From IMG/VR virus record IMGVR_UViG_2622736468_000005: a stretch of DNA of 56,715 nucleotides. One strand, 5' to 3'. This document shows positions 33,884 through 52,184 of the stretch, in pieces; the stretch's first letter is position 1, and each line of letters opens with the position of its first letter. A model generated the notes under the pieces. It did not search any database. It saw nothing but the letters and a program-made list of their open reading frames with translations, and had not been told where the DNA came from. Made by a program: the position numbers and the translations under genes. Source of the stretch: a virus. Its lineage: Duplodnaviria; Heunggongvirae; Uroviricota; Caudoviricetes.

Positions 33884-33918
33884 GCAGTTTACTCACATCT
33901 GACAAAATCAATATAAAC

Positions 33919-34140
33919 AGCCCCTCCGGAGAGGGGCTGGAGAGTGGCGCTATGTGCCATTGCATGGTGCCGGGTGCCTCCCGGTGAATTCAGTACCAGC
34001 ACCTGAATCCGCGATTATCCCATATACCTACTCGCTGATTACCCCTCCGCACAGGGGGATTCACCATGCGAAATTTTTTAACAAACTTCCCGCCGGCCAG
34101 ACAATAATCGCCAGCCTGAATTATGAGCAACGTGGCATTT
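33919..34140. repeat. repeat element copy A (~220 bp) beginning with perfect 20-bp palindrome agcccctccggagaggggct
   Basis: Shares palindrome and several conserved blocks (gcatggtgcc..cctcccggt.aattcag, gggggattcaccatgcga, ttttaacaaa, cagacaat) with copy B; compensatory changes in stems. Confidence 0.55.
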
Positions 34141-34381
34141 TACGGGAAAACTGTTTTCTGCAGTAAAAAGGCCCGCCGGAGCGAGCCTGGAAGGATAGCG
34201 GTCATGTGATGCCGGTTTCCCGGTAACTCAGCATCGGTATCTGAGTCAACGTTTTCTCTACTGGGTCATTTCCGATACGTTCCGCCTTCCGGCAGACTTT
34301 CATCACGTCAGAAAATATAGCACCCTGAGTAACAGGACAGTACTCAGAATTCAGGAAACTGTGACACATCCTGCACAGAAA

Positions 34382-34600
34382 AGCCCCTCCGGAGAGGGGC
34401 TGAAGTATAGCCTAATTTCTGTCTGTCGCATGGTGCCAGGGGCCTCCCGGTAAATTCAGCCTGTCTACTGAATTTGCATGTTCTCTGGATCATACACTTT
34501 GCCAGATGCCCCGCCGCTGAGGGGGATTCACCATGCGATGTAATTTTTAACAAATTCTCCGGCAGCCAGACAATCATCAAGCTGTGGAATTGTGAGGTAT
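34382..34600. repeat. repeat element copy B (paralog of 33919..34140)
   Basis: Same palindrome and conserved blocks; hairpin aaattcag-cctgtcta-ctgaattt. Confidence 0.55.
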
Positions 34601-34829: not shown

Positions 34830-34906
34830 TGGACCGCCATCGGGGACTTGAACCCCGCGCAGCCAGCTTCGAAGGCTGGCGCTCTATCCCGATGAGCTAA
34901 TGGCGG
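34830..34906 (-). tRNA. tRNA-Arg (anticodon read as TCG)
   Basis: 77-nt cloverleaf on minus strand: acceptor CCGCCAT/ATGGCGG, D-arm GCTCATCGGGATAGAGC, anticodon loop CTTCGAA, T-arm CGGGGTTCAAGTCCCCG, 3' TCCA. Confidence 0.7.
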
Positions 34907-34913
34907 TATGTGA

Positions 34914-34989
34914 TGGTGGCCCTTGCTGGATTTGAACCAGCGACCTGGCGATTATGAGTCGCTCGCTCTCACCACTGAGCTAAAGGGCC
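34914..34989 (-). tRNA. tRNA-Ile2 (anticodon CAT, ileX/ileZ-like) or tRNA-Met
   Basis: 76-nt minus-strand sequence GGCCCTTTAGCTCAGTGGTGAGAGCGAGCGACTCATAATCGCCAGGTCGCTGGTTCAAATCCAGCAAGGGCCACCA; 7-bp acceptor stem, CTCATAA loop. Confidence 0.8.
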
Positions 34990-37855: not shown

Positions 37856-38132
37856 CAGTCACCTCTTTTACCCAAGCACGCCAGTTGCAAAGGCGTGATC
37901 AAGAAAACGAAAAATTAAATCAACCTGAGAACCATGCTTTTCTTCGAACGCCAGAGGATCCGCATGAAGCTCGTTGTGATGCTCCCGACACAGCGGTAGC
38001 GTGAAAATATCGTGAGATTTTGTCCCCATTCCGCCCTGACCATGACCAATCAGGTGATGGGGATCGTCGGCTGGCTTATGAACCGCCCCGGGAATCCTGG
38101 AGACTAAACTTCCTGAGAAAGAGGTAAACAGG

Positions 38133-38459
38133 ATGACTAAAAATACTCGTTTTTCCCCCGAAGTCCGTCAACGGGCAGTCCGTATGGTTCTGGAAAGTCA
38201 GAGCGAATATGACTCACAATGGGCGACAATTTGTTCCATTGCTCCAAAGATTGGCTGTACGCCGGAGACTCTGCGTGTCTGGGTTCGCCAGCATGAGCGG
38301 GATACCGGGGGCGGTGATGGAGGGCTCACCACCGCTGAACGTCAGCGTCTGAAAGAGCTGGAGCGTGAAAATCGTGAACTGCGCCGCAGTAACGATATCC
38401 TTCGCCAGGCTTCCGCTTATTTTGCGAAGGCGGAGTTCGACCGCCTCTGGAAAAAATGA
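38133..38459 (+). CDS. IS629 transposase OrfA (HTH)
   Basis: 108-aa [25 protein letters not shown]...; slippery A AAA AAT at its end. Confidence 0.85.
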
Positions 38460-39346
38460 TGCCACTGCTGGATAAGCTGCGTGAGCAGTACGGGGTCGGA
38501 CCGCTATGCAGCGAACTGCATATTGCCCCGTCAACGTATTACCACTGTCAGCAACAGCGACATCATCCGGATAAACGCAGTGCCCGTGCGCAGCGCGATG
38601 ACTGGCTGAAGAAAGAGATACAGCGCGTATACGATGAAAATCACAAGGTATACGGTGTGCGTAAAGTCTGGCGTCAGTTGTTACGGGAAGGTATCAGAGT
38701 GGCCAGATGCACTGTGGCACGTCTCATGGCGGTTATGGGACTTGCCGGTGTTCTCCGGGGTAAAAAGGTCCGTACGACCATCAGCCGGAAAGCCGTTGCC
38801 GCAGGCGACCGCGTAAACCGTCAGTTCGTGGCAGAACGACCTGACCAGCTGTGGGTGGCTGATTTTACTTACGTCAGCACATGGCAGGGCTTCGTCTATG
38901 TGGCGTTCATCATTGATGTGTTTGCCGGATACATCGTGGGGTGGCGGGTCTCATCGTCCATGGAAACGACATTCGTGCTGGATGCACTGGAGCAGGCGTT
39001 ATGGGCCCGTCGACCGTCCGGCACGGTCCATCACAGTGATAAAGGTTCTCAGTATGTATCGCTGGCCTACACACAGCGGCTTAAGGAAGCCGGATTACTG
39101 GCATCAACAGGAAGTACAGGCGACTCGTATGACAACGCGATGGCGGAGAGCATCAATGGTCTTTACAAAGCGGAGGTAATACACCGTAAGAGCTGGAAAA
39201 ACCGTGCAGAAGTGGAACTGGCCACACTCACGTGGGTGGACTGGTATAACAATCGACGATTGCTGGAAAGGCTGGGCCATACTCCTCCGGCAGAAGCAGA
39301 AAAAGCTTATTATGCTTCCATCGGAAACGATGATCTGGCAGCCTGA
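38456..39346 (+). CDS. IS629 transposase OrfB (DDE integrase domain)
   Basis: 296-aa ORF overlapping orfA in -1 frame; DDE-type catalytic core. Confidence 0.85.
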
Positions 39347-40229
39347 GTTCACAGATAAAACACTCTCCAGGAAACCCGGGGCGGTTCACTTACCACAACA
39401 CGCACACGGCTGTGTCTTCACCCAGCGTGTGTATTTCTCGTTAACCCAGCGGCGACGTTTAGGTCGTTTCATGAAAGATTCCGGAGACTCAGGATCAACG
39501 GCAATGCTGACCACCGTCTCTTCCTGTGGCGGGTTTTGCTGGTGGGCGTGAGGCAGCGGCGCAAGATTTTTTGTGCGCTGCTTCAGTATGCTGGTGGCGG
39601 TCTGCTCTCCCGGTACGATGTCGCTTTCACGGTACATTGAGCGGATTTTTTCCGCACGCAACCCCAGCGAACGACGTAATACCGCTTCCGGTAGCGCGTC
39701 CGCCACCTGATTGCGGACCGCCCACCAGGATAATTCAGCCAGCGATAATTCCCGTTCCTGCGAGCCATTCATTGCATGGCGTATGACGTCAATCATCCAT
39801 GCAGACAGGTTTTGGTGAGCAAGTTGCCCGAGTGATTCGGAGGTCTGGTCGCGCAGCTGGTTGTCGCAGTGCCAGCACAACACCATTGCGCCGGTACCAT
39901 AACGGTGAATGACGGTTTCACTGTGGTGATAATCGCCGTGTGGCCACTGGCAGGATTTAACATGGCGCAGTAACCAATCAGACAATGCGCCAGCGCCACC
40001 AGCAGCACGAATCACTCGTTCGTCGCTGAAAAATGGCAGTAATGATTTATCCTCCGCCAGCGGCTGGCGAACGGCAGGAACGACCCCGGACGGCAGATTA
40101 CGCATGCTTTTCGGTTCCGGCTCCACCAGTACCCGGGTATTGTGGAATACCGGCATGGATTCACGGCCCGGCTTAACGATCACCAGCCCGAGTTCCGGTA
40201 CCAGAACAGGTCGAAGTAATACCCGCACG

Positions 40230-42791: not shown

Positions 42792-42947
42792 TTACTCCTC
42801 AGGTTCGTAAGCTGTGAAGACAGCGACCTCCGTCTGGCCGGTTCGGATTCGTACCTCGCAGAGGTCTTTCCTCGTTACCAGTGCCGTCACAATGACGGTT
42901 AAACAGATGACGATCAGGGCGATTAGCATCGCCTTTTGCTGCTTCAT
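42792..42947 (-). CDS. hokD: Hok/Gef-family small membrane toxin (HokD/RelF-like)
   Basis: 51-aa ORF MKQQKAMLIALIVICLTVIVTALVTRKDLCEVRIRTGQTEVAVFTAYEPEE with AAGGAG RBS; track ORF 42792..43004 carries an in-frame N-terminal extension. Confidence 0.8.
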   Translation of the reverse strand: MKQQKAMLIALIVICLTVIVTALVTRKDLCEVRIRTGQTEVAVFTAYEPEE

Positions 42948-43238
42948 AGCCTGCTTCTCCTTGCCTTTCGGCACGTAAGAGGCTAACCTACGTGTGTAGA
43001 GCATAGATATGGCCTCAGATTAATGTTAAGCGTCTTGCCGGACGCGTAATGTTAACTGGGGCTTTTCTCTATCTGCCTTTTGGTGTTCATGCCTGAGACA
43101 GATAGCCTCAAGCACCCGCTGCAATTCTACTTAACTCTCCTTTTCCCGCAAACCGTTTTTATCCCCAGCGGCAAATCGAATACACCACCAGCGCCACCGC
43201 CATCGCAATTCCTACCGTTGTTAATGCTTCAGGCCAGG

Positions 43239-46754: not shown

Positions 46755-47543
46755 TCACTTTTCCGATACAACACGGCGGGAAGAATCAGTAATCTGTCGA
46801 ACAATATCCCGGTGCTTGTTCACCTCCCGCAGCGCGGCGCAGACTCGCTCCCACTTCTGAACATCACTTTTCGCCCTGCGCAGCGCCAGGTTTGCCCTGC
46901 GAAGGGACGGAAAAATCAGCTCATCTGCTTGCGTTTCGGTAAACGATGGCAACGGCTGCACAATGTCCGCCACAGTTTCTGTTTTAATTTCTTCCTGTGT
47001 TGCGGCTTCCCGGACTGGTAACGCAGCACCTGCTGGCTGAGGAAAGGCCTTACCATCACTTTCCGTTACCAGCGCGGCTTTCGGCTCTGCTGGTAAATTA
47101 TCGCCCGGCATGCAGTAACGAAATTTATCGTTCTGATTAACGCGTGCCAGCCGCCCCGTTGCGGTTACCACCGCCAGCGTGGAGGCAACCTTGCGAGTAC
47201 TGACGCCGAACTTACCCGCCAGTTCCTCACACGTTTTAGCACCATCCTGACCGATAAACTCAATCATCATGTCTGCGGTAACTTTTTGTTCGACCTCCCC
47301 GGTCAGCATATCCTGTGCTTCAGATTTTACTGGCCGCTCTTCGGTTACCCGGGATTCACCTTCGCCAGCCAGAAACCAGGTGTGACCAGTTTTATCAACG
47401 ACGCCATTTCTTTTGAGTTCCCACAGCTCGTTGAGAACCTCTTCACGACTGATATCAAGTCGCGCGGCCAGTTCTACCGATGTGGCTTTTCCCATTGCTT
47501 TCAGTGCGTCAAATACGGTTTCCATTAAAATTTCCTCCGACAA
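46755..47543 (-). CDS. hypothetical protein with winged-helix-like repeats
   Basis: 262-aa ORF. Confidence 0.35.
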
Positions 47544-47558
47544 AATCGTTTCTCAGAT

Positions 47559-48224
47559 TCAAATAAAACCAGCTGCCTTCCGGCGTTCGTATTCCTGTTT
47601 CAGCCGTTCAATTGGCGTTGGCCCTTGCGGGTGTTTCGCCCCTTCCAGTTGTCGTCGCACTGGCGGAACACTCATCCCGTTACCAACATGCTTTGCCCAT
47701 TTCGTCAGTTGCCGTTCCGCAAGTCGTTTTAACTCACCCTGCGTCATCTGGCGCTCAATCCCTCTGGTACGCATTTCGAGGCAGATGTGGTACAGCACAG
47801 GCTGAGGCCACGGATATTTGTCGCTTCCGTCATATCGCCAGGACTCATCACGCCAGCGGCGGTACTCCTCCATCACAGCATCCACCGTCAGGCCAAATGG
47901 ATTGGCCCCGCTTTCTGAAATCAGCGCCACAAACTCAGCCAGGTCCGGAGGCCATGTTTCACCCGCCCGGCAGCGGTCCATGCACTGGCGGCAGACCTGT
48001 CGGATTTGCTGCTCAGTCATCGCGCCAATCTGTGCAATCCAGAGCTTCGAAGGTGCGGCCCCGTTCTTCTGGGTCCAGCGGTTCGAATAAACCTCCCCCA
48101 TGAGTTCCCACAGCTTCCAGACCGTTTCCGTCGCTGATAAATCCGTTTTCACGTTCCCACTGCTCACGTGCTGCCCGAATTTCCTGAACTGCCCGTGATG
48201 CGGTGCCACCTGGTGCTGCTGCAT
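47559..48224 (-). CDS. replication protein P-like (helicase loader); start uncertain
   Basis: 221-aa ORF; C-terminal half resembles lambda P (…YPWPQPVLYHICLEMR…, C-terminal basic tail); 211-bp overlap with upstream ORF. Confidence 0.55.
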   Translation of the reverse strand: MQQHQVAPHHGQFRKFGQHVSSGNVKTDLSATETVWKLWELMGEVYSNRWTQKNGAAPSKLWIAQIGAMTEQQIRQVCRQCMDRCRAGETWPPDLAEFVALISESGANPFGLTVDAVMEEYRRWRDESWRYDGSDKYPWPQPVLYHICLEMRTRGIERQMTQGELKRLAERQLTKWAKHVGNGMSVPPVRRQLEGAKHPQGPTPIERLKQEYERRKAAGFI

Positions 48225-49028
48225 GGTTTACCCCCTTGCTGACTGGCTTAACCTGCGCCCTGACGTGATTTACGTGACGGGCGAATTTCTGCTCCCACTG
48301 AACCTGCGTGAAAACTTTCCCCTCCGCTGCCCAGTAGTCCCGGAAAGCGGCAAGTTCAGCAGGTGTAAATTCCGGCTCCGGCAAAGCCATCCCCCACAAC
48401 GCAGCCCGTCGTCGAAAATCCGGCGACGGATGCCAGTCATCGACCATCGGAAATTTCCCGATGGGTTCGCTCAGTCCATCCAGGGATGCAGGTTCTGCTG
48501 CCTGCAACGGCGTACCACTCGACTCACTGGTCGGAGCACTCTCGCGCACGTGCGCGTTATGTGTGGGGTTTAATTCTTTATCTGTATCTTTATCTGTCGT
48601 GACTCGTCGTGACACCCCTCATTCTGTTTTCGTAATTTTTCCCTCTCGCGCTGCGCTCTCTTGCGCTCTGCCGGGGATTTCGCGGTTTGTGAAACGTTGC
48701 CATTGTCCTCTTTCAGTACCTGGCGTTTTTCCCATCCGGTGATTAAATCTCCATCAAGTACCCGCCCCTGCATTGCCTGTAAAATTGAATCAATTACTTC
48801 TTCCGTCACATCAAGCGCACTTGCTAAATCTTCCGTCGTGACATCAATGTGACCACGTAGTGACACGCCGTGACATGTCGTGACATTTCGTGACGCGCTC
48901 ACCAGAAGGTGGATATACACTGCCATCACTGTTGCAATTGGCTGCCCTGACACCCTGGCAATTGTTCGCCACTTAGGGTCATTTGGCATGTCATGCCATA
49001 ATCTGAGCCAGGCGTTAGCCATACTCAC
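48013..49028 (-). CDS. replication initiator (O-like) carrying origin iterons; two track ORFs probably one gene separated by a 1-bp homopolymer frameshift at 48615..48618
   Basis: N-terminal ORF (48570..49028) ends ...KQNEGCHDESRQIKIQIKN-stop; adding one G in the G4 run gives ...KQNEGVSRRVTTDKDTDKELNP... continuous with 48013..48615 (which starts on GTG right after a stop). Confidence 0.45.
48849..48898. repeat. iterons: five ~10-bp direct repeats TGACAnnnCG (origin of replication inside O-like gene)
   Basis: gtgaccacgtag tgacacgccg tgacatgtcg tgacatttcg tgacgcgctc at 10-bp period; two more copies at ~48595..48615. Confidence 0.6.
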
Positions 49029-49093
49029 CTCTTCTGATACCGAATCTTTTTACTCACAAATTGCCGGAAGTGATCCGGTATGAATATTGCGAG

Positions 49094-49519
49094 TCAATGC
49101 ACAGCCACAATATTTCCTGCAGGGCCACCACGATTCATCTGGTTGAAACCAGCGATCGCCACTGCGACAAAATCATCAGCGTCTCTCACCAGTCGTTCCC
49201 GCGTCTCCACCAGCTCCCGAAAATAAGCTGAACTGTGGCTGCGCATTCGGGCCACCAGCAGAGGCGGCATTGCTTTTTCGATCGCTGGTAACAACGCCTG
49301 AATTTTTTTAACCGCATCAGGAGTGTCTTTCTCCACCCAGCGGAAAATTTTCTGGGTATTGCGAGCCAGGGCTTCCGGATGGCTGTCGTCATATAATTCC
49401 GGGAACGTCATACCAAGCTCAAAATAAGCCCGGGTTATTTCAGCTGCCGGAACTTTTTCACCGTCCGGATGCGCCCAGGCATTCATCGCCATGCGGATGT
49501 GCTCATGCCTGATTTTCAT
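49094..49519 (-). CDS. YdaT-like / phage CII-like regulatory protein
   Basis: 141-aa ORF MKIRHEHIRMAMNAWAHPDGEKVP... immediately downstream of cro-like gene. Confidence 0.55.
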   Translation of the reverse strand: MKIRHEHIRMAMNAWAHPDGEKVPAAEITRAYFELGMTFPELYDDSHPEALARNTQKIFRWVEKDTPDAVKKIQALLPAIEKAMPPLLVARMRSHSSAYFRELVETRERLVRDADDFVAVAIAGFNQMNRGGPAGNIVAVH

Positions 49520-49777
49520 GAATCAACTCCGATGCATTTGGTGTGTTAGCCTTGAATCCAACAGGTAAGCCGTCGGTTGGATTCGGGTAAATATCAGGCC
49601 GGAGTTCATGAGGTGTAACCTCGAAATTCGTTACTTCAGCAACACGTAATGCTTTTTCAGGGCTGAATCTTTCATAGCCCCCAGCACTCGACTTACATGC
49701 ACCTGAGATAAACCCGTTAGCTTCCCAAACTGTAGCTGGGTGATATGTTTCTCTTTTAAATAGTCTCTTAAGTTCAT
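49503..49777 (-). CDS. Cro-like / YdaS-like HTH protein, apparently frameshifted at a C5 run at 49678..49682
   Basis: Frame 1: MNLRDYLKEKHITQLQFGKLTGLSQVHVSRVLG...; adding one G gives ...VLGGYERFSPEKALRVAEVTNFEVTPHELRPDIYP... with the expected HTH-then-LRPD layout; divergent from repressor gene. Confidence 0.45.
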
Positions 49778-49884: not shown

Positions 49885-50346
49885 ATGAAAAAAACACGCG
49901 AAGTGATTGCAACTCCAGAAGCGAGCAAGAATTTAAAAGCCGCATGGAATGCAAGAAAAAAAGAGCTGAAGCTGACTCAAGAGCTGGCGGCTGAGTTGTT
50001 GGGATTCGAATCTCAAGGCACCGTTAGCCAGTATCTGAACGGCAAGATACCGGTAAATACCGACGCTGCGCTAAAATTTGCGGCTCTGTTAAAGGTAAAA
50101 CCAGAGGACATTCGAGAAGACCTTAAAGACTTAATGAATTATGTAAGATCATCAGATACTTATGATGATAACTTTTCAGGCAAAGGATGGAGGCTGGTCA
50201 ATGAAGAACAGGCAGAGTTACTTAACCTCTTCGAGATTCTACCTGCGTCAGAAAAAGCCAAACTCCTTAACCAGCTACGTGGACTAAACAAGCTCTACGA
50301 GGAAGCCTTCGAGAACATGCTGGCACTAAAGAAACGTAACCAGTAG
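49885..50346 (+). CDS. prophage repressor, DicA/RacR-like HTH protein (no S24 peptidase domain)
   Basis: 153-aa ORF; HTH (LTQELAAELLGFESQGTVSQYLNGK); C-terminus resembles DicA; divergent from cro-like gene. Confidence 0.6.
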   Translation: MKKTREVIATPEASKNLKAAWNARKKELKLTQELAAELLGFESQGTVSQYLNGKIPVNTDAALKFAALLKVKPEDIREDLKDLMNYVRSSDTYDDNFSGKGWRLVNEEQAELLNLFEILPASEKAKLLNQLRGLNKLYEEAFENMLALKKRNQ

Positions 50347-52126: not shown

Positions 52127-52184
52127 TTTCTGGTGACGTTTGGCGGTATCAGTTTTACTCCGTGACTGCTCTGCCGCCCTTTTT
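52127..52184 (+). ncRNA. dicF: DicF small RNA (cell-division-inhibitor sRNA)
   Basis: Sequence tttctggtgacgtttggcggtatcagttttactccgtgactgctctgccgccc + T-run matches DicF as I recall it; immediately upstream of dicB. Confidence 0.6.

What the first reader, a model, noticed from the sequence alone, without database searches (positions are those of the whole stretch)
48013..49028. Replication initiator gene carrying origin iterons, probably one gene split by a homopolymer frameshift
Five 10-bp-spaced TGACAnnnCG repeats (48849..48898) and two more near 48595..48615 lie inside the coding sequence, as lambda ori lies inside O. The 152-aa and 200-aa track ORFs become one ~350-aa protein if the G4 run at 48615..48618 is G5. 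The 200-aa ORF also overlaps the P-like gene by 211 bp, so its true 3' end is unclear.
Basis: partly seen in the sequence, partly recalled or inferred. Interest (0 to 1): 0.45.

Follow-up and report, generated by a model that had tools for sequence, protein, structure and literature searches.

The report
Prophage initiator gene broken by origin-repeat deletion
This is the replication-initiator gene of a lambda-like E. coli prophage, with the phage's probable replication origin (short phased repeats) inside its coding sequence; here it is broken by a real 31-bp deletion that removed three of those repeats, not by a sequencing slip in a run of Gs.

Summary
On the minus strand, 49022..48013 is one O-like initiator gene read as two ORFs (150/152 aa and 200 aa). 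It carries two arrays of 10-11-bp-phased GTCACG repeats: six units at 48838-48894 and two at 48599-48613.

The proposed cause is wrong. Intact homologues (346 aa, e.g. E. coli 118UI) have the same G4 run and are identical to the window except for 31 extra bases. The window lost three of five units by deletion between two perfect 17-nt direct repeats. The same allele occurs in six other data sets, so it is real.

The repeats act at the DNA level. The cores fall in all three codon phases. Synonymous sites inside them are frozen across 20 genera, while spacer codons vary. 43 of 61 homologous genes from different species keep two phased arrays at about the same gene positions, with lineage-specific cores. 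An A-rich tract usually follows array 2. This is the lambda ori-in-O / SPP1 oriL-in-gene-38 architecture, but origin activity is inferred.

The 212-nt overlap with the P-like gene is real. Both frames stay open and conserved in five phages, as far away as Vibrio. The initiator therefore ends at 48013 and P starts at 48224.

Verdict: an ordinary pseudogene in a new member of a known kind.

The parts
48013..49022 (-). O-like replication initiator gene, disrupted (pseudogene). Intact homologues are 1041 nt / 346 aa; this copy is 1010 nt.
   Evidence: Alignment A2: identical to the E. coli 118UI gene (annotated as WP_001262415.1) apart from a 31-nt gap. PGAP annotates a sister allele with a 10-nt deletion as 'frameshifted'. 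PHROG families annotated 'replication initiation protein' match.
48570..49022 (-). N-terminal ORF of 150 aa plus stop. Predicted winged-helix DNA-binding domain (aa 1-100), disordered stretch, basic helix (aa 117-134), then an out-of-frame tail QIKIQIKN.
48013..48615 (-). C-terminal remnant frame (200-aa ORF). It holds a DnaT-like domain (about 48253-48453) and a conserved tail EERGxxFxxLDxxDW. It has no credible start of its own.
   Evidence: Pfam DnaT PF17948, 8e-18. NCBIfam DnaT, 7e-28, below the equivalog cut-off. Tail conserved in Vibrio phage D77, Citrobacter phage Chris1 and Klebsiella phage Kp4865-4. Read from the sequence: the GTG at 48615 directly abuts the GAGGG Shine-Dalgarno-like run with no spacer.
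48838..48894 (-). Iteron array 1: six phased units with core GTCAC(G). It encodes the beta-hairpin (aa 44-63) of the winged-helix domain.
   Evidence: Codon phases are 2, 0, 1, 2, 1, 0. Most relatives have four units here. This lineage has two more, an in-frame 21 nt coding TCHGVSL.
48804..48809 (+). Single inverted copy of the core (CGTCAC on the + strand), about 30 nt downstream of array 1 in the gene.
   Evidence: GTGAC sits at the equivalent gene position (193, or 214 in genes with the 21-nt insertion) in most GTCACG-class homologues. Its significance was not tested.
48598..48614 (-). Iteron array 2, remnant: two units remaining of five. This 17-mer, TGTCACGACGAGTCACG, is the deletion junction.
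   Evidence: In the intact allele the same 17-mer occurs twice, 31 nt apart (L005 1947 and 1978). Alignment A2 columns 426-457. GTCACG-class homologues have 3-5 units here, never 2.
48615..48618 (-). It is the wild-type state.
   Evidence: The same GAGGGGTGTCACG is present in the intact genes of 118UI and FDAARGOS_1249 and in 20 of 26 IMG/VR loci.
48573..48597 (-). A-rich tract ACAGATAAAGATACAGATAAAGAAT directly after array 2. It is one of the two lowest-GC 40-nt windows of the gene (35% GC) with strong A/T strand asymmetry. Candidate DNA-unwinding element.
   Evidence: Tandem repeat period 12/6. Composition profile. A (GAYAMR)n tract follows array 2 in 33 of 61 homologous loci.
47559..48224 (-). 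P-like helicase-loader gene, 221 aa, starting at ATG 48224 with AAGGGGG 6 nt upstream. The first 212 nt overlap the initiator's 3' end in another frame.
   Evidence: phrog_109 matches residues 19-221 to profile positions 22-236 (2e-63). The overlap residues alone match at 3e-4. tblastn to Vibrio phages covers residues 1-102 at 8e-17. Both frames are open in five phages.

Best explanation
The locus is the replication module of a lambdoid (Rac/Qin-type early region) E. coli prophage. One gene encodes a modular initiator: an N-terminal winged-helix domain, a basic helix, a disordered linker, a DnaT-like C-terminal domain and a short acidic/aromatic tail.

The phage origin very probably lies inside this gene. 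It consists of two arrays of helically phased 10-11-bp iterons (core GTCACG). Array 1 lies in the hairpin-coding part of the winged-helix domain. Array 2 lies in the linker-coding part and is followed by an A-rich (GATAAA/GATACA)n tract.

By analogy with lambda O/ori-lambda and SPP1 G38P/oriL, the N-terminal domain would bind the iterons and oligomerise. The A-rich tract would melt. The C-terminal part would bring in the downstream P-like loader with host DnaB. These mechanistic steps are inferred, not shown.

In this window a 31-bp deletion between two identical 17-nt stretches of array 2 removed three of its five units. Because 31 is not a multiple of 3, translation now stops after 150 aa. 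The DnaT-like domain and tail are no longer joined to the DNA-binding domain, and array 2 is below the 3-5 units seen in any intact relative. The module is therefore most likely replication-defective, in a prophage that also carries an IS insertion.

The long overlap with the P-like gene is a conserved dual-coding arrangement, not an annotation problem.
For: Deletion (shown):
- The gene is identical to the intact 346-aa gene of E. coli 118UI except for a 31-nt gap inside array 2, and G4 is unchanged.
- A perfect 17-nt direct repeat lies 31 nt apart in the intact allele.
- The window's sequence over 47400-49600, or the part each contig covers, recurs in GCA_901482365.1 and five SRA assemblies: four identical, two with one SNP at 48247.
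- None of 5,426 complete E. coli genomes gave a match better than 96.9% (a 4-unit allele); none was 99% or more.
- All 26 IMG/VR loci of this type are intact and keep all five repeat units, one with a point change in a core.

Iterons are DNA-level elements (shown):
- Six cores occur in 53 nt, against at most 3 in simulations.
- The cores sit in all three codon phases.
- In 20 GTCACG-class genes from different species, the codons inside the cores are fixed: GTC 40/40, ACG 40/40, GGT 20/20, CAC 20/20, TCA 19/20. Usage of those codons elsewhere in the same genes is 18-51%. Spacer codons vary.
- 43 of 61 homologous loci keep two phased arrays at about the same gene positions (array 1 within nt 100-230, array 2 within nt 300-520). 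The core differs by lineage (GTCACG, GTAACG, GAACGC, GTGACGC) but is the same in both arrays of a gene. 33 of 61 have the A-rich tract.

Protein identity:
- PHROG 'replication initiation protein', with weaker matches to 'replisome organizer' and DnaD-like families.
- DnaT domain and winged-helix fold.
- A P-like loader gene lies downstream.

Precedents: ori-lambda within O, with four iterons and a high-AT region (PMC6022878). SPP1 oriL direct repeats plus an AT-rich unwinding element within gene 38 (PMC6316719).
Against: - No experiment shows that these repeats bind the protein or fire as an origin. I found no paper on this family.
- The N-terminal domain has no significant Pfam or NCBIfam hit. 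'Initiator' therefore rests on PHROG labels, fold and gene context.
- The deletion allele occurs in prophages that differ by up to about 1%. That fits inheritance of a dead gene, but also tolerance or some use of the split form.
- A P. aeruginosa prophage has a stand-alone 160-aa N-domain ORF ending just after its iterons, followed by a separate ORF. Split forms may therefore not always be dead.
Confidence: 0.8

Rival explanations
1. The gene is intact in the organism, and the split is a one-base error, or a real slip, in the G4 run at 48615-48618.
For: Adding one G does join the frames (sequence). Homopolymer errors are common in some sequencing chemistries.
Against: Intact homologues have G4. 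The window lacks 31 bases relative to them, bounded by 17-nt direct repeats. The window's sequence in this region recurs in six other assemblies from different runs.
Confidence: 0.02
2. The split form still works. Either the 150-aa origin-binding protein and a separately translated C-terminal part act together, or rare -1 slippage on ATA AAG in the A-rich tract restores some full-length protein. Alternatively, the truncated binder plus residual iterons is kept because it blocks replication of incoming phages with the same origin specificity.
For: The allele persists in slightly diverged prophages. Other truncated alleles exist (P0005, P0015, P0016, P0019), and there is a PHROG of N-terminal-only ORFs (phrog_21423). 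A P. aeruginosa prophage has N-domain and downstream part as separate ORFs. Plasmid-borne portions of the lambda replication region are reported to block plating of lambdoid phages (abstract of PMC3349717).
Against: The 200-aa frame has no spaced ribosome-binding site at its GTG (sequence). Other truncations fall at unrelated places (P0021, P0030), as expected of random decay. Iteron arrays are mutational hot spots: a separate 10-bp deletion is seen in FDAARGOS_1249. Tethering of the DNA-binding and loader-recruiting parts is thought necessary in lambda O (PMC6022878). Nearly all relatives are intact.
Confidence: 0.1
3. The repeats are binding sites for the protein, but they serve autoregulation or a transcriptional roadblock, or they are protein-level repeats. 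The true origin would lie elsewhere.
For: In-gene operator-like sites could throttle transcription of the downstream loader gene. No functional origin data exist.
Against: Protein-level repeats are excluded: the period is 10-11 nt, the cores fall in all three phases and synonymous sites are frozen. Two phased arrays plus an adjacent A-rich tract between the two domain-coding parts is the standard iteron-origin layout. No other cluster of the motif exists in the 56.7-kb window.
Confidence: 0.08

Closest known systems
Phage lambda O protein with ori-lambda inside gene O, plus P helicase loader
   Same: The origin lies inside the initiator gene, between the parts coding the DNA-binding and loader-recruiting domains. 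There are direct repeats followed by an A/T-rich unwinding tract, and a P-family loader gene lies immediately downstream. Small deletions within the in-gene origin are known (r93/r96/r98/r99; PMC6022878).
   Different: There is no significant match to the lambda O N-terminal family PF04492. The iterons are about 10-11 bp, directly repeated and helically phased, rather than four 18-bp inverted-repeat sites. There are two arrays, one inside the DNA-binding domain's own coding sequence. The C-terminal domain is DnaT-like. The initiator and loader genes overlap by 212 nt.
Bacillus phage SPP1 replisome organizer G38P with oriL inside gene 38
   Same: The origin-binding protein binds direct repeats placed within its own gene, next to an AT-rich unwinding element (PMC6316719). 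RefSeq names close relatives of the window's protein 'phage replisome organizer'. There are weak profile matches to replisome-organizer families.
   Different: Sequence similarity is marginal (Pfam PF09681 E = 0.12, below threshold). The downstream partners differ: a P-like loader using host DnaB here, versus G39P/G40P. No second distant origin copy like oriR is seen in the window.
Iteron-binding winged-helix Rep initiators of plasmids, and DnaD
   Different: The sites lie inside the coding sequence, not in an intergenic oriV. There is a single winged-helix domain plus a DnaT-like domain. Any copy-control role of the iterons is unknown.
Rac-type prophage ydaU/ydaV genes (Escherichia phage Rac-SA53 record) and E. 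coli primosomal protein DnaT
   Same: Rac-SA53 ydaU and PPompW 'phage replication protein' share the same C-terminal DnaT-like half and the same P-like gene at about 90% DNA identity. The DnaT domain match is 8e-18.
   Different: The N-terminal domains are unrelated: DUF1376 in Rac-SA53 and HTH_36 in PPompW. Similarity to those genes begins just after array 2 and the A-rich tract (about 48575-48589). The protein is not a DnaT equivalog (97 bits against a cut-off of 201).

Membership tests
In-gene iteron origin (lambda ori / SPP1 oriL type) | Three or more direct repeats of a short motif, regularly spaced, inside the initiator's coding sequence | tested here: met
   Six plus two units in the window, six plus five in the intact allele, with 10-11 nt spacing.
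In-gene iteron origin (lambda ori / SPP1 oriL type) | The repeats are constrained as DNA, independently of the encoded protein | tested here: met
   All three codon phases are used. Synonymous sites are fixed in the cores across 20 species while spacer codons vary. Lineage-specific cores occur at about the same gene positions in 43 of 61 loci.
In-gene iteron origin (lambda ori / SPP1 oriL type) | Adjacent A/T-rich unwinding element | tested here: met
   The window 48560-48599 is 35% GC, equal lowest of the gene, and A-rich on the coding strand. A (GAYAMR)n tract follows array 2 in 33 of 61 loci. Unwinding itself was not tested.
In-gene iteron origin (lambda ori / SPP1 oriL type) | The cognate initiator binds the repeats, and the segment supports initiator-dependent replication | not testable with these tools
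   Needs EMSA or footprinting and an origin-plasmid assay. No literature was found.
Lambda O family (Pfam PF04492 Phage_rep_O) | Significant match to the N-terminal O profile | tested here: not met
   No hit for the window-type protein at E up to 1. Only the PPompW-type N-terminus gives E = 0.26.
Phage replisome organizer, N-terminal domain (Pfam PF09681 / SPP1 G38P-like) | Significant match to the profile | tested here: inconclusive
   PF09681 gives E = 0.12, 12.8 bits against a cut-off of 23.3, over almost the full profile. PHROG 'replisome organizer' phrog_4880 gives 4.5e-5 and 5.5e-6. RefSeq uses the name for relatives.
DnaT DNA-binding domain (Pfam PF17948) | Domain match above the gathering score | tested here: met
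   64.4 bits against a cut-off of 25, E = 8e-18, residues 55-121 of the 200-aa frame. Not a DnaT equivalog: 97 bits against 201.
Lambda P helicase loader (Pfam PF06992 / phrog_109), for the downstream gene | Profile match covering both the N- and C-terminal parts | tested here: met
   PF06992, 59 bits against a cut-off of 26. phrog_109 positions 22-236 of 236, E = 2e-63, for the 221-aa ORF. Weak direct match to lambda P chain 8v9t_V, E = 0.0035.
Homopolymer (slipped-strand) frameshift pseudogene | Run length differs from that of intact homologues, with no other length difference | tested here: not met
   G4 is present in both the intact and the broken alleles. The only length difference is the 31-nt loss of iteron units.

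The most novel reading that the evidence does not exclude
The 212-nt stretch 48013-48224 is a conserved dual-coding region. The initiator's C-terminal tail (EERGxxFxxLDxxDW) and the N-terminal region of the P-like helicase loader are read from the same DNA in two frames. By analogy with lambda P, that N-terminal region would be the part that contacts the initiator. The arrangement has the same length and register from E. coli prophages to Vibrio phages, which implies obligatory translational or evolutionary coupling of the two partners. RefSeq-style annotation, which starts P at 48020 (153 aa), would then cut off a functional N-terminus in hundreds of genomes. Separately, and less likely, the truncated 150-aa origin binder might be retained as a replication-exclusion factor.
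Probability: 0.65. Interest if true: 0.45.

Novelty: new member of a known kind. Interest (0 to 1): 0.3.

Why it matters
For this window, the result says the prophage's own replication module is probably dead. That bears on whether the prophage can be induced and amplified.

More generally, the comparison defines an uncharacterised but widespread initiator family in gamma-, beta- and alpha-proteobacterial prophages. Its origin can be read directly from the gene: two phased arrays plus an A-rich tract. The repeat cores switch between lineages, which gives a ready-made system for studying initiator-origin specificity.

The analysis also shows two further things. In-gene iteron arrays are frameshift-prone, because their unit length is not a multiple of three. 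And current annotation trims the P-like loader at a long, conserved gene overlap.

None of this overturns current understanding. It extends the lambda/SPP1 paradigm.

Tried and rejected
- Homopolymer frameshift: rejected.
- Sequencing or assembly artefact: rejected, because the window's sequence in this region recurs in six other data sets.
- 'The 211-bp overlap is only a longest-ORF artefact and P starts at the ATGA overlap at 48020, as RefSeq annotates'. This was my first reading. I dropped it after the PHROG profile, tblastn to Vibrio, Citrobacter and Klebsiella phages, and the open-frame counts.
- Protein-level repeat: rejected on codon phases and synonymous sites.
- Pfam and NCBIfam gave nothing for the N-terminal domain.
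- Literature searches found nothing on this family: iterons with replisome organizer and prophage; oriJ with Rac; GTCACG with iteron; ydaU with ydaV; DnaT-like with phage.
- The IMG/VR scan with the P-like alignment returned only near-identical E. coli loci. It served as a copy-number survey but not for deep comparison of the overlap.
- Rfam found no RNA family in the region.
- One Python run timed out and was repeated.
- Not attempted: covariation between the residues of the putative recognition helix and the iteron core class. Any such test would need care for array 1, which encodes part of the domain itself.
Full report
**What is there**

The genes of this part of the window run on the minus strand. 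The order is:
- a repressor-like HTH gene (49885-50346, + strand);
- a YdaS/Cro-like gene;
- a YdaT-family gene (49094-49519);
- the two ORFs of the finding (48570-49028 and 48013-48615);
- a P-like ORF (47559-48224);
- a DUF1627 gene.

The region is about 99% identical to prophages of E. coli NCCP15648, 042 and others. Those prophages carry dicB, DicF, ydfA/B/C, an exonuclease, an excisionase and an integrase. The module is therefore the early-right replication module of a Rac/Qin-type lambdoid prophage.

**Check of the observation**

On the coding strand, GTCAC(G) begins at window positions 48894, 48884, 48874, 48864, 48853 and 48842, with spacings of 10, 10, 10, 11 and 11 nt. Two further units begin at 48613 and 48603.

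Six cores within 53 nt on one strand compare with at most two per 60 nt anywhere else in the 56.7-kb window. In 100 first-order Markov simulations the maximum was three. The hexamer is not enriched window-wide (27 observed, 27 expected), so the signal is the clustering and phasing.

The G4 run is at 48615-48618. One extra G would join the frames, and the overlap with the P-like ORF is 212 nt.

**One gene or two, and why it is split**

Related phages and prophages have a single gene at this position:
- Rac-SA53 ydaU, 356 aa;
- PPompW/Stx2 phages, 346 aa;
- phage vB_EcoS-689R5 'DNA replication protein O', 356 aa;
- E. coli 118UI (annotated as WP_001262415.1), 346 aa.

The 118UI gene is identical to the window's over its whole length except for 31 additional bases (alignment A2). 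In 118UI the second array reads TGTCACGACGA GTCACGCATA TGTCACGACA TGTCACGACGA GTCACGACAG. The window keeps only TGTCACGACGA GTCACGACAG.

The GGGG run directly upstream is the same in both, so the homopolymer is not the lesion. The intact allele contains the perfect 17-mer TGTCACGACGAGTCACG twice, 31 nt apart. The window has exactly one copy, at 48614-48598. This is the signature of slipped-strand or unequal-recombination deletion between direct repeats.

Because 31 = 3 x 10 + 1, the reading frame shifts and translation ends at TAA 48572-48570 after 150 aa. A sister allele in strain FDAARGOS_1249 lost a different 10 nt of the same array. PGAP flags it as 'frameshifted'.

The window's allele is not an error. 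Its exact 150-aa product is encoded on seven contigs. These include GCA_901482365.1 (99.985% identical to the window over 6.4 kb) and five independent SRA assemblies (six contigs were retrieved). Over 47400-49600, or whatever part of it each contig covers, four are identical to the window and two differ by one SNP at 48247. The flanks differ by up to about 1%.

The allele is nevertheless rare:
- None of 5,426 complete E. coli genomes has it; the best match is 96.9%.
- 144 records match the intact 181-nt segment at 99% or more.
- All 26 IMG/VR loci of this type are intact and keep all five repeat units, one with a point change in a core.

Other truncated products in the protein database arise from different lesions in or near array 2 (P0005, P0015, P0016, P0019). 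Two more arise from lesions elsewhere (P0021, P0030). The array therefore looks like a mutational hot spot among ordinary decay.

**Are the repeats DNA elements?**

Three lines of evidence say yes.

First, the period is 10-11 nt, so the cores fall in all three codon phases (2, 0, 1, 2, 1, 0 in array 1). They are translated as SR, VT or CH/GH according to phase.

Second, I compared 20 GTCACG-class homologues from different species (Shigella, Aquitalea, Serratia, Pseudomonas, Bordetella, Rahnella, Acidovorax and others). The codons that make up the cores are invariant: GTC 40/40, ACG 40/40, GGT 20/20, CAC 20/20, TCA 19/20. Elsewhere in the same genes those codons account for 18-51% of their amino acids. 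The spacer codons vary freely; for example, the Arg codon between units is CGA, CGT, CGC or CGG.

Third, I examined 61 homologous loci, one per species genome. In 43 of them there are two phased arrays of a single core at about the same gene positions (array 1 beginning within nt 100-230, array 2 within nt 300-520). The core differs between lineages:
- GTCACG;
- GTAACG (Pantoea, Enterobacter and others);
- (C)GAACGC (many beta- and alpha-proteobacteria, and some metagenome-assembled genomes labelled Acidobacteria);
- GTGACGC.

In 33 of the 61 loci, array 2 is followed within 60 nt by a (GAYAMR)n tract that is translated as DKDKD or DTDTD. Both arrays of a gene change core together. In the window the corresponding tract (48573-48597) is one of the two lowest-GC 40-nt windows of the gene (35%) and is strongly A-rich on the coding strand.

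**The protein**

The N-terminal ORF has no Pfam or NCBIfam hit. It does belong to PHROG families annotated 'replication initiation protein', with weaker matches to 'replisome organizer' and 'DnaD-like helicase loader'.

Array 1 encodes a lower-confidence beta-hairpin (aa 44-63). In this lineage the hairpin tolerates a 7-aa insertion, which corresponds to two extra units. Array 2 and the A-rich tract encode the disordered linker after a basic helix. The 200-aa frame contains a DnaT DNA-binding domain (8e-18).

The gene is mosaic. Three unrelated N-terminal domains (this one, DUF1376 in Rac-SA53, HTH_36 in PPompW) are joined to the same DnaT-like half. This N-terminal domain is also found with a different C-terminal half in 689R5. 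DNA similarity to the partners that share only one half ends or begins at about 48575-48589, immediately after array 2 and the A-rich tract.

**The 3' end and the P-like gene**

RefSeq starts the P homologue at the ATGA overlap (window 48020; 153 aa), and I first accepted that. Several results argue for the 221-aa ORF from ATG 48224, which has AAGGGGG 6 nt upstream:
- It matches the P-like loader profile phrog_109 over positions 22-236 (2e-63). The 153-aa version matches only positions 74-236.
- The 68 overlap residues alone score 3e-4.
- tblastn finds Vibrio phage homologues covering residues 1-102 at 8e-17.

In Vibrio phage D77 the O-like CDS and the P-like ORF overlap by exactly 212 nt. The DNA aligns with the window without gaps, with the same ATG column and the same TGA column. 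Both frames are conserved: the P head at 2e-13 and the initiator tail at 5e-6.

In the window, Rac-SA53, Citrobacter phage Chris1, Klebsiella phage Kp4865-4 and Vibrio D77, both frames are open across 212-215 nt. The third frame has 2-7 stops, and nucleotide identity falls as low as 47%. The initiator therefore ends at 48013, P starts at 48224, and the overlap is a conserved dual-coding stretch.

**Mechanism**

Shown:
- the anatomy of the gene and its arrays;
- the DNA-level constraint on the repeats;
- the deletion and its frame consequence;
- the domain identities.

Inferred from the lambda and SPP1 precedents (PMC6022878; PMC6316719):
- the winged-helix domain binds the phased iterons and forms a nucleoprotein complex;
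- the A-rich tract melts;
- the DnaT-like half or tail recruits P-DnaB.

In this window the tether between binding and recruiting parts is cut. Array 2 has two units, whereas 23 GTCACG-class relatives have 3-5. The likeliest state is therefore a replication-dead module. An IS3-family element inserted at about 38.1-39.4 kb points the same way.

I cannot exclude residual or altered function. A P. aeruginosa prophage has a free-standing 160-aa N-domain ORF ending right after its four iterons.

**Comparison and novelty**

The architecture is that of lambda ori-in-O and SPP1 oriL-in-gene-38. From my own knowledge, not checked here, P22 ori in gene 18 is a further example.

The protein is not a member of the lambda O Pfam family. 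It is at best a distant member of the replisome-organizer family. I found no paper describing this family's origin.

I rate the finding as a new member of a known kind, carrying an ordinary inactivating deletion. The family-wide iteron classes and the conserved overlap are the parts worth a short follow-up.

Noticed in passing
window 48013-48224 (minus strand); also L078 2001-2212, L160 1495-1709, L001 2876-3087: The initiator's 3' end and the P-like loader's 5' end overlap by 212-215 nt in different frames. Both frames are open and conserved at protein level in E. coli, Citrobacter, Klebsiella and Vibrio phages. RefSeq annotation trims P to 153 aa, starting at 48020.
   Followed up: yes
window about 38079-39388 (orfA 38133-38459, orfB 38456-39346, ALIL pseudoknot 38414-38530): An IS3-family insertion sequence (from memory, IS629/IS1203-like; not checked) is absent from the otherwise near-identical NCCP15648 prophage. 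It lies beside the DUF968-type gene region. This is a second sign of prophage decay.
   Followed up: partly
loci L006-L068, first about 600 nt of each gene: Homologous initiator genes fall into iteron classes with different cores (GTCACG, GTAACG, GAACGC, GTGACGC). Both arrays of a gene always share the core. This may reflect co-evolving initiator-origin specificities.
   Followed up: partly
L163 2501-3399 (P. aeruginosa CP065865.1 prophage): An N-terminal-domain-only ORF (160 aa) ends just after four TGTCACGCA iterons and an A-rich tract, next to C6/C5/G5 runs. A separate 135-aa ORF in another frame resembles, by eye, the C-terminal part of single-gene relatives such as P0062. A primase-helicase gene follows. 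It is either a natural split or another frameshift.
   Followed up: partly
window 48804-48809 (+ strand): A single inverted copy of the iteron core lies about 30 nt downstream of array 1. It is present at the same gene position in most GTCACG-class homologues, where it codes the DVT of ALDVTEE.
   Followed up: no
L079 1295-2167 (Vibrio phage D171): The linker of an unrelated O-like initiator reads VTESHLQKSQVTESHPEVTESHP. This is the protein-level footprint of another in-gene DNA repeat array. Its O-like tail is cut short at QEER by a stop, unlike the tail in phage D77.
   Followed up: no
window 52128-52179, 42942-43117, 33909-34566, 2062-2260, 34830-34989: Rfam hits elsewhere in the window: DicF, sok (next to hokD), two STnc100 copies and IS009. 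ARAGORN finds tRNA-Arg(TCG) and tRNA-Met inside the prophage.
   Followed up: no
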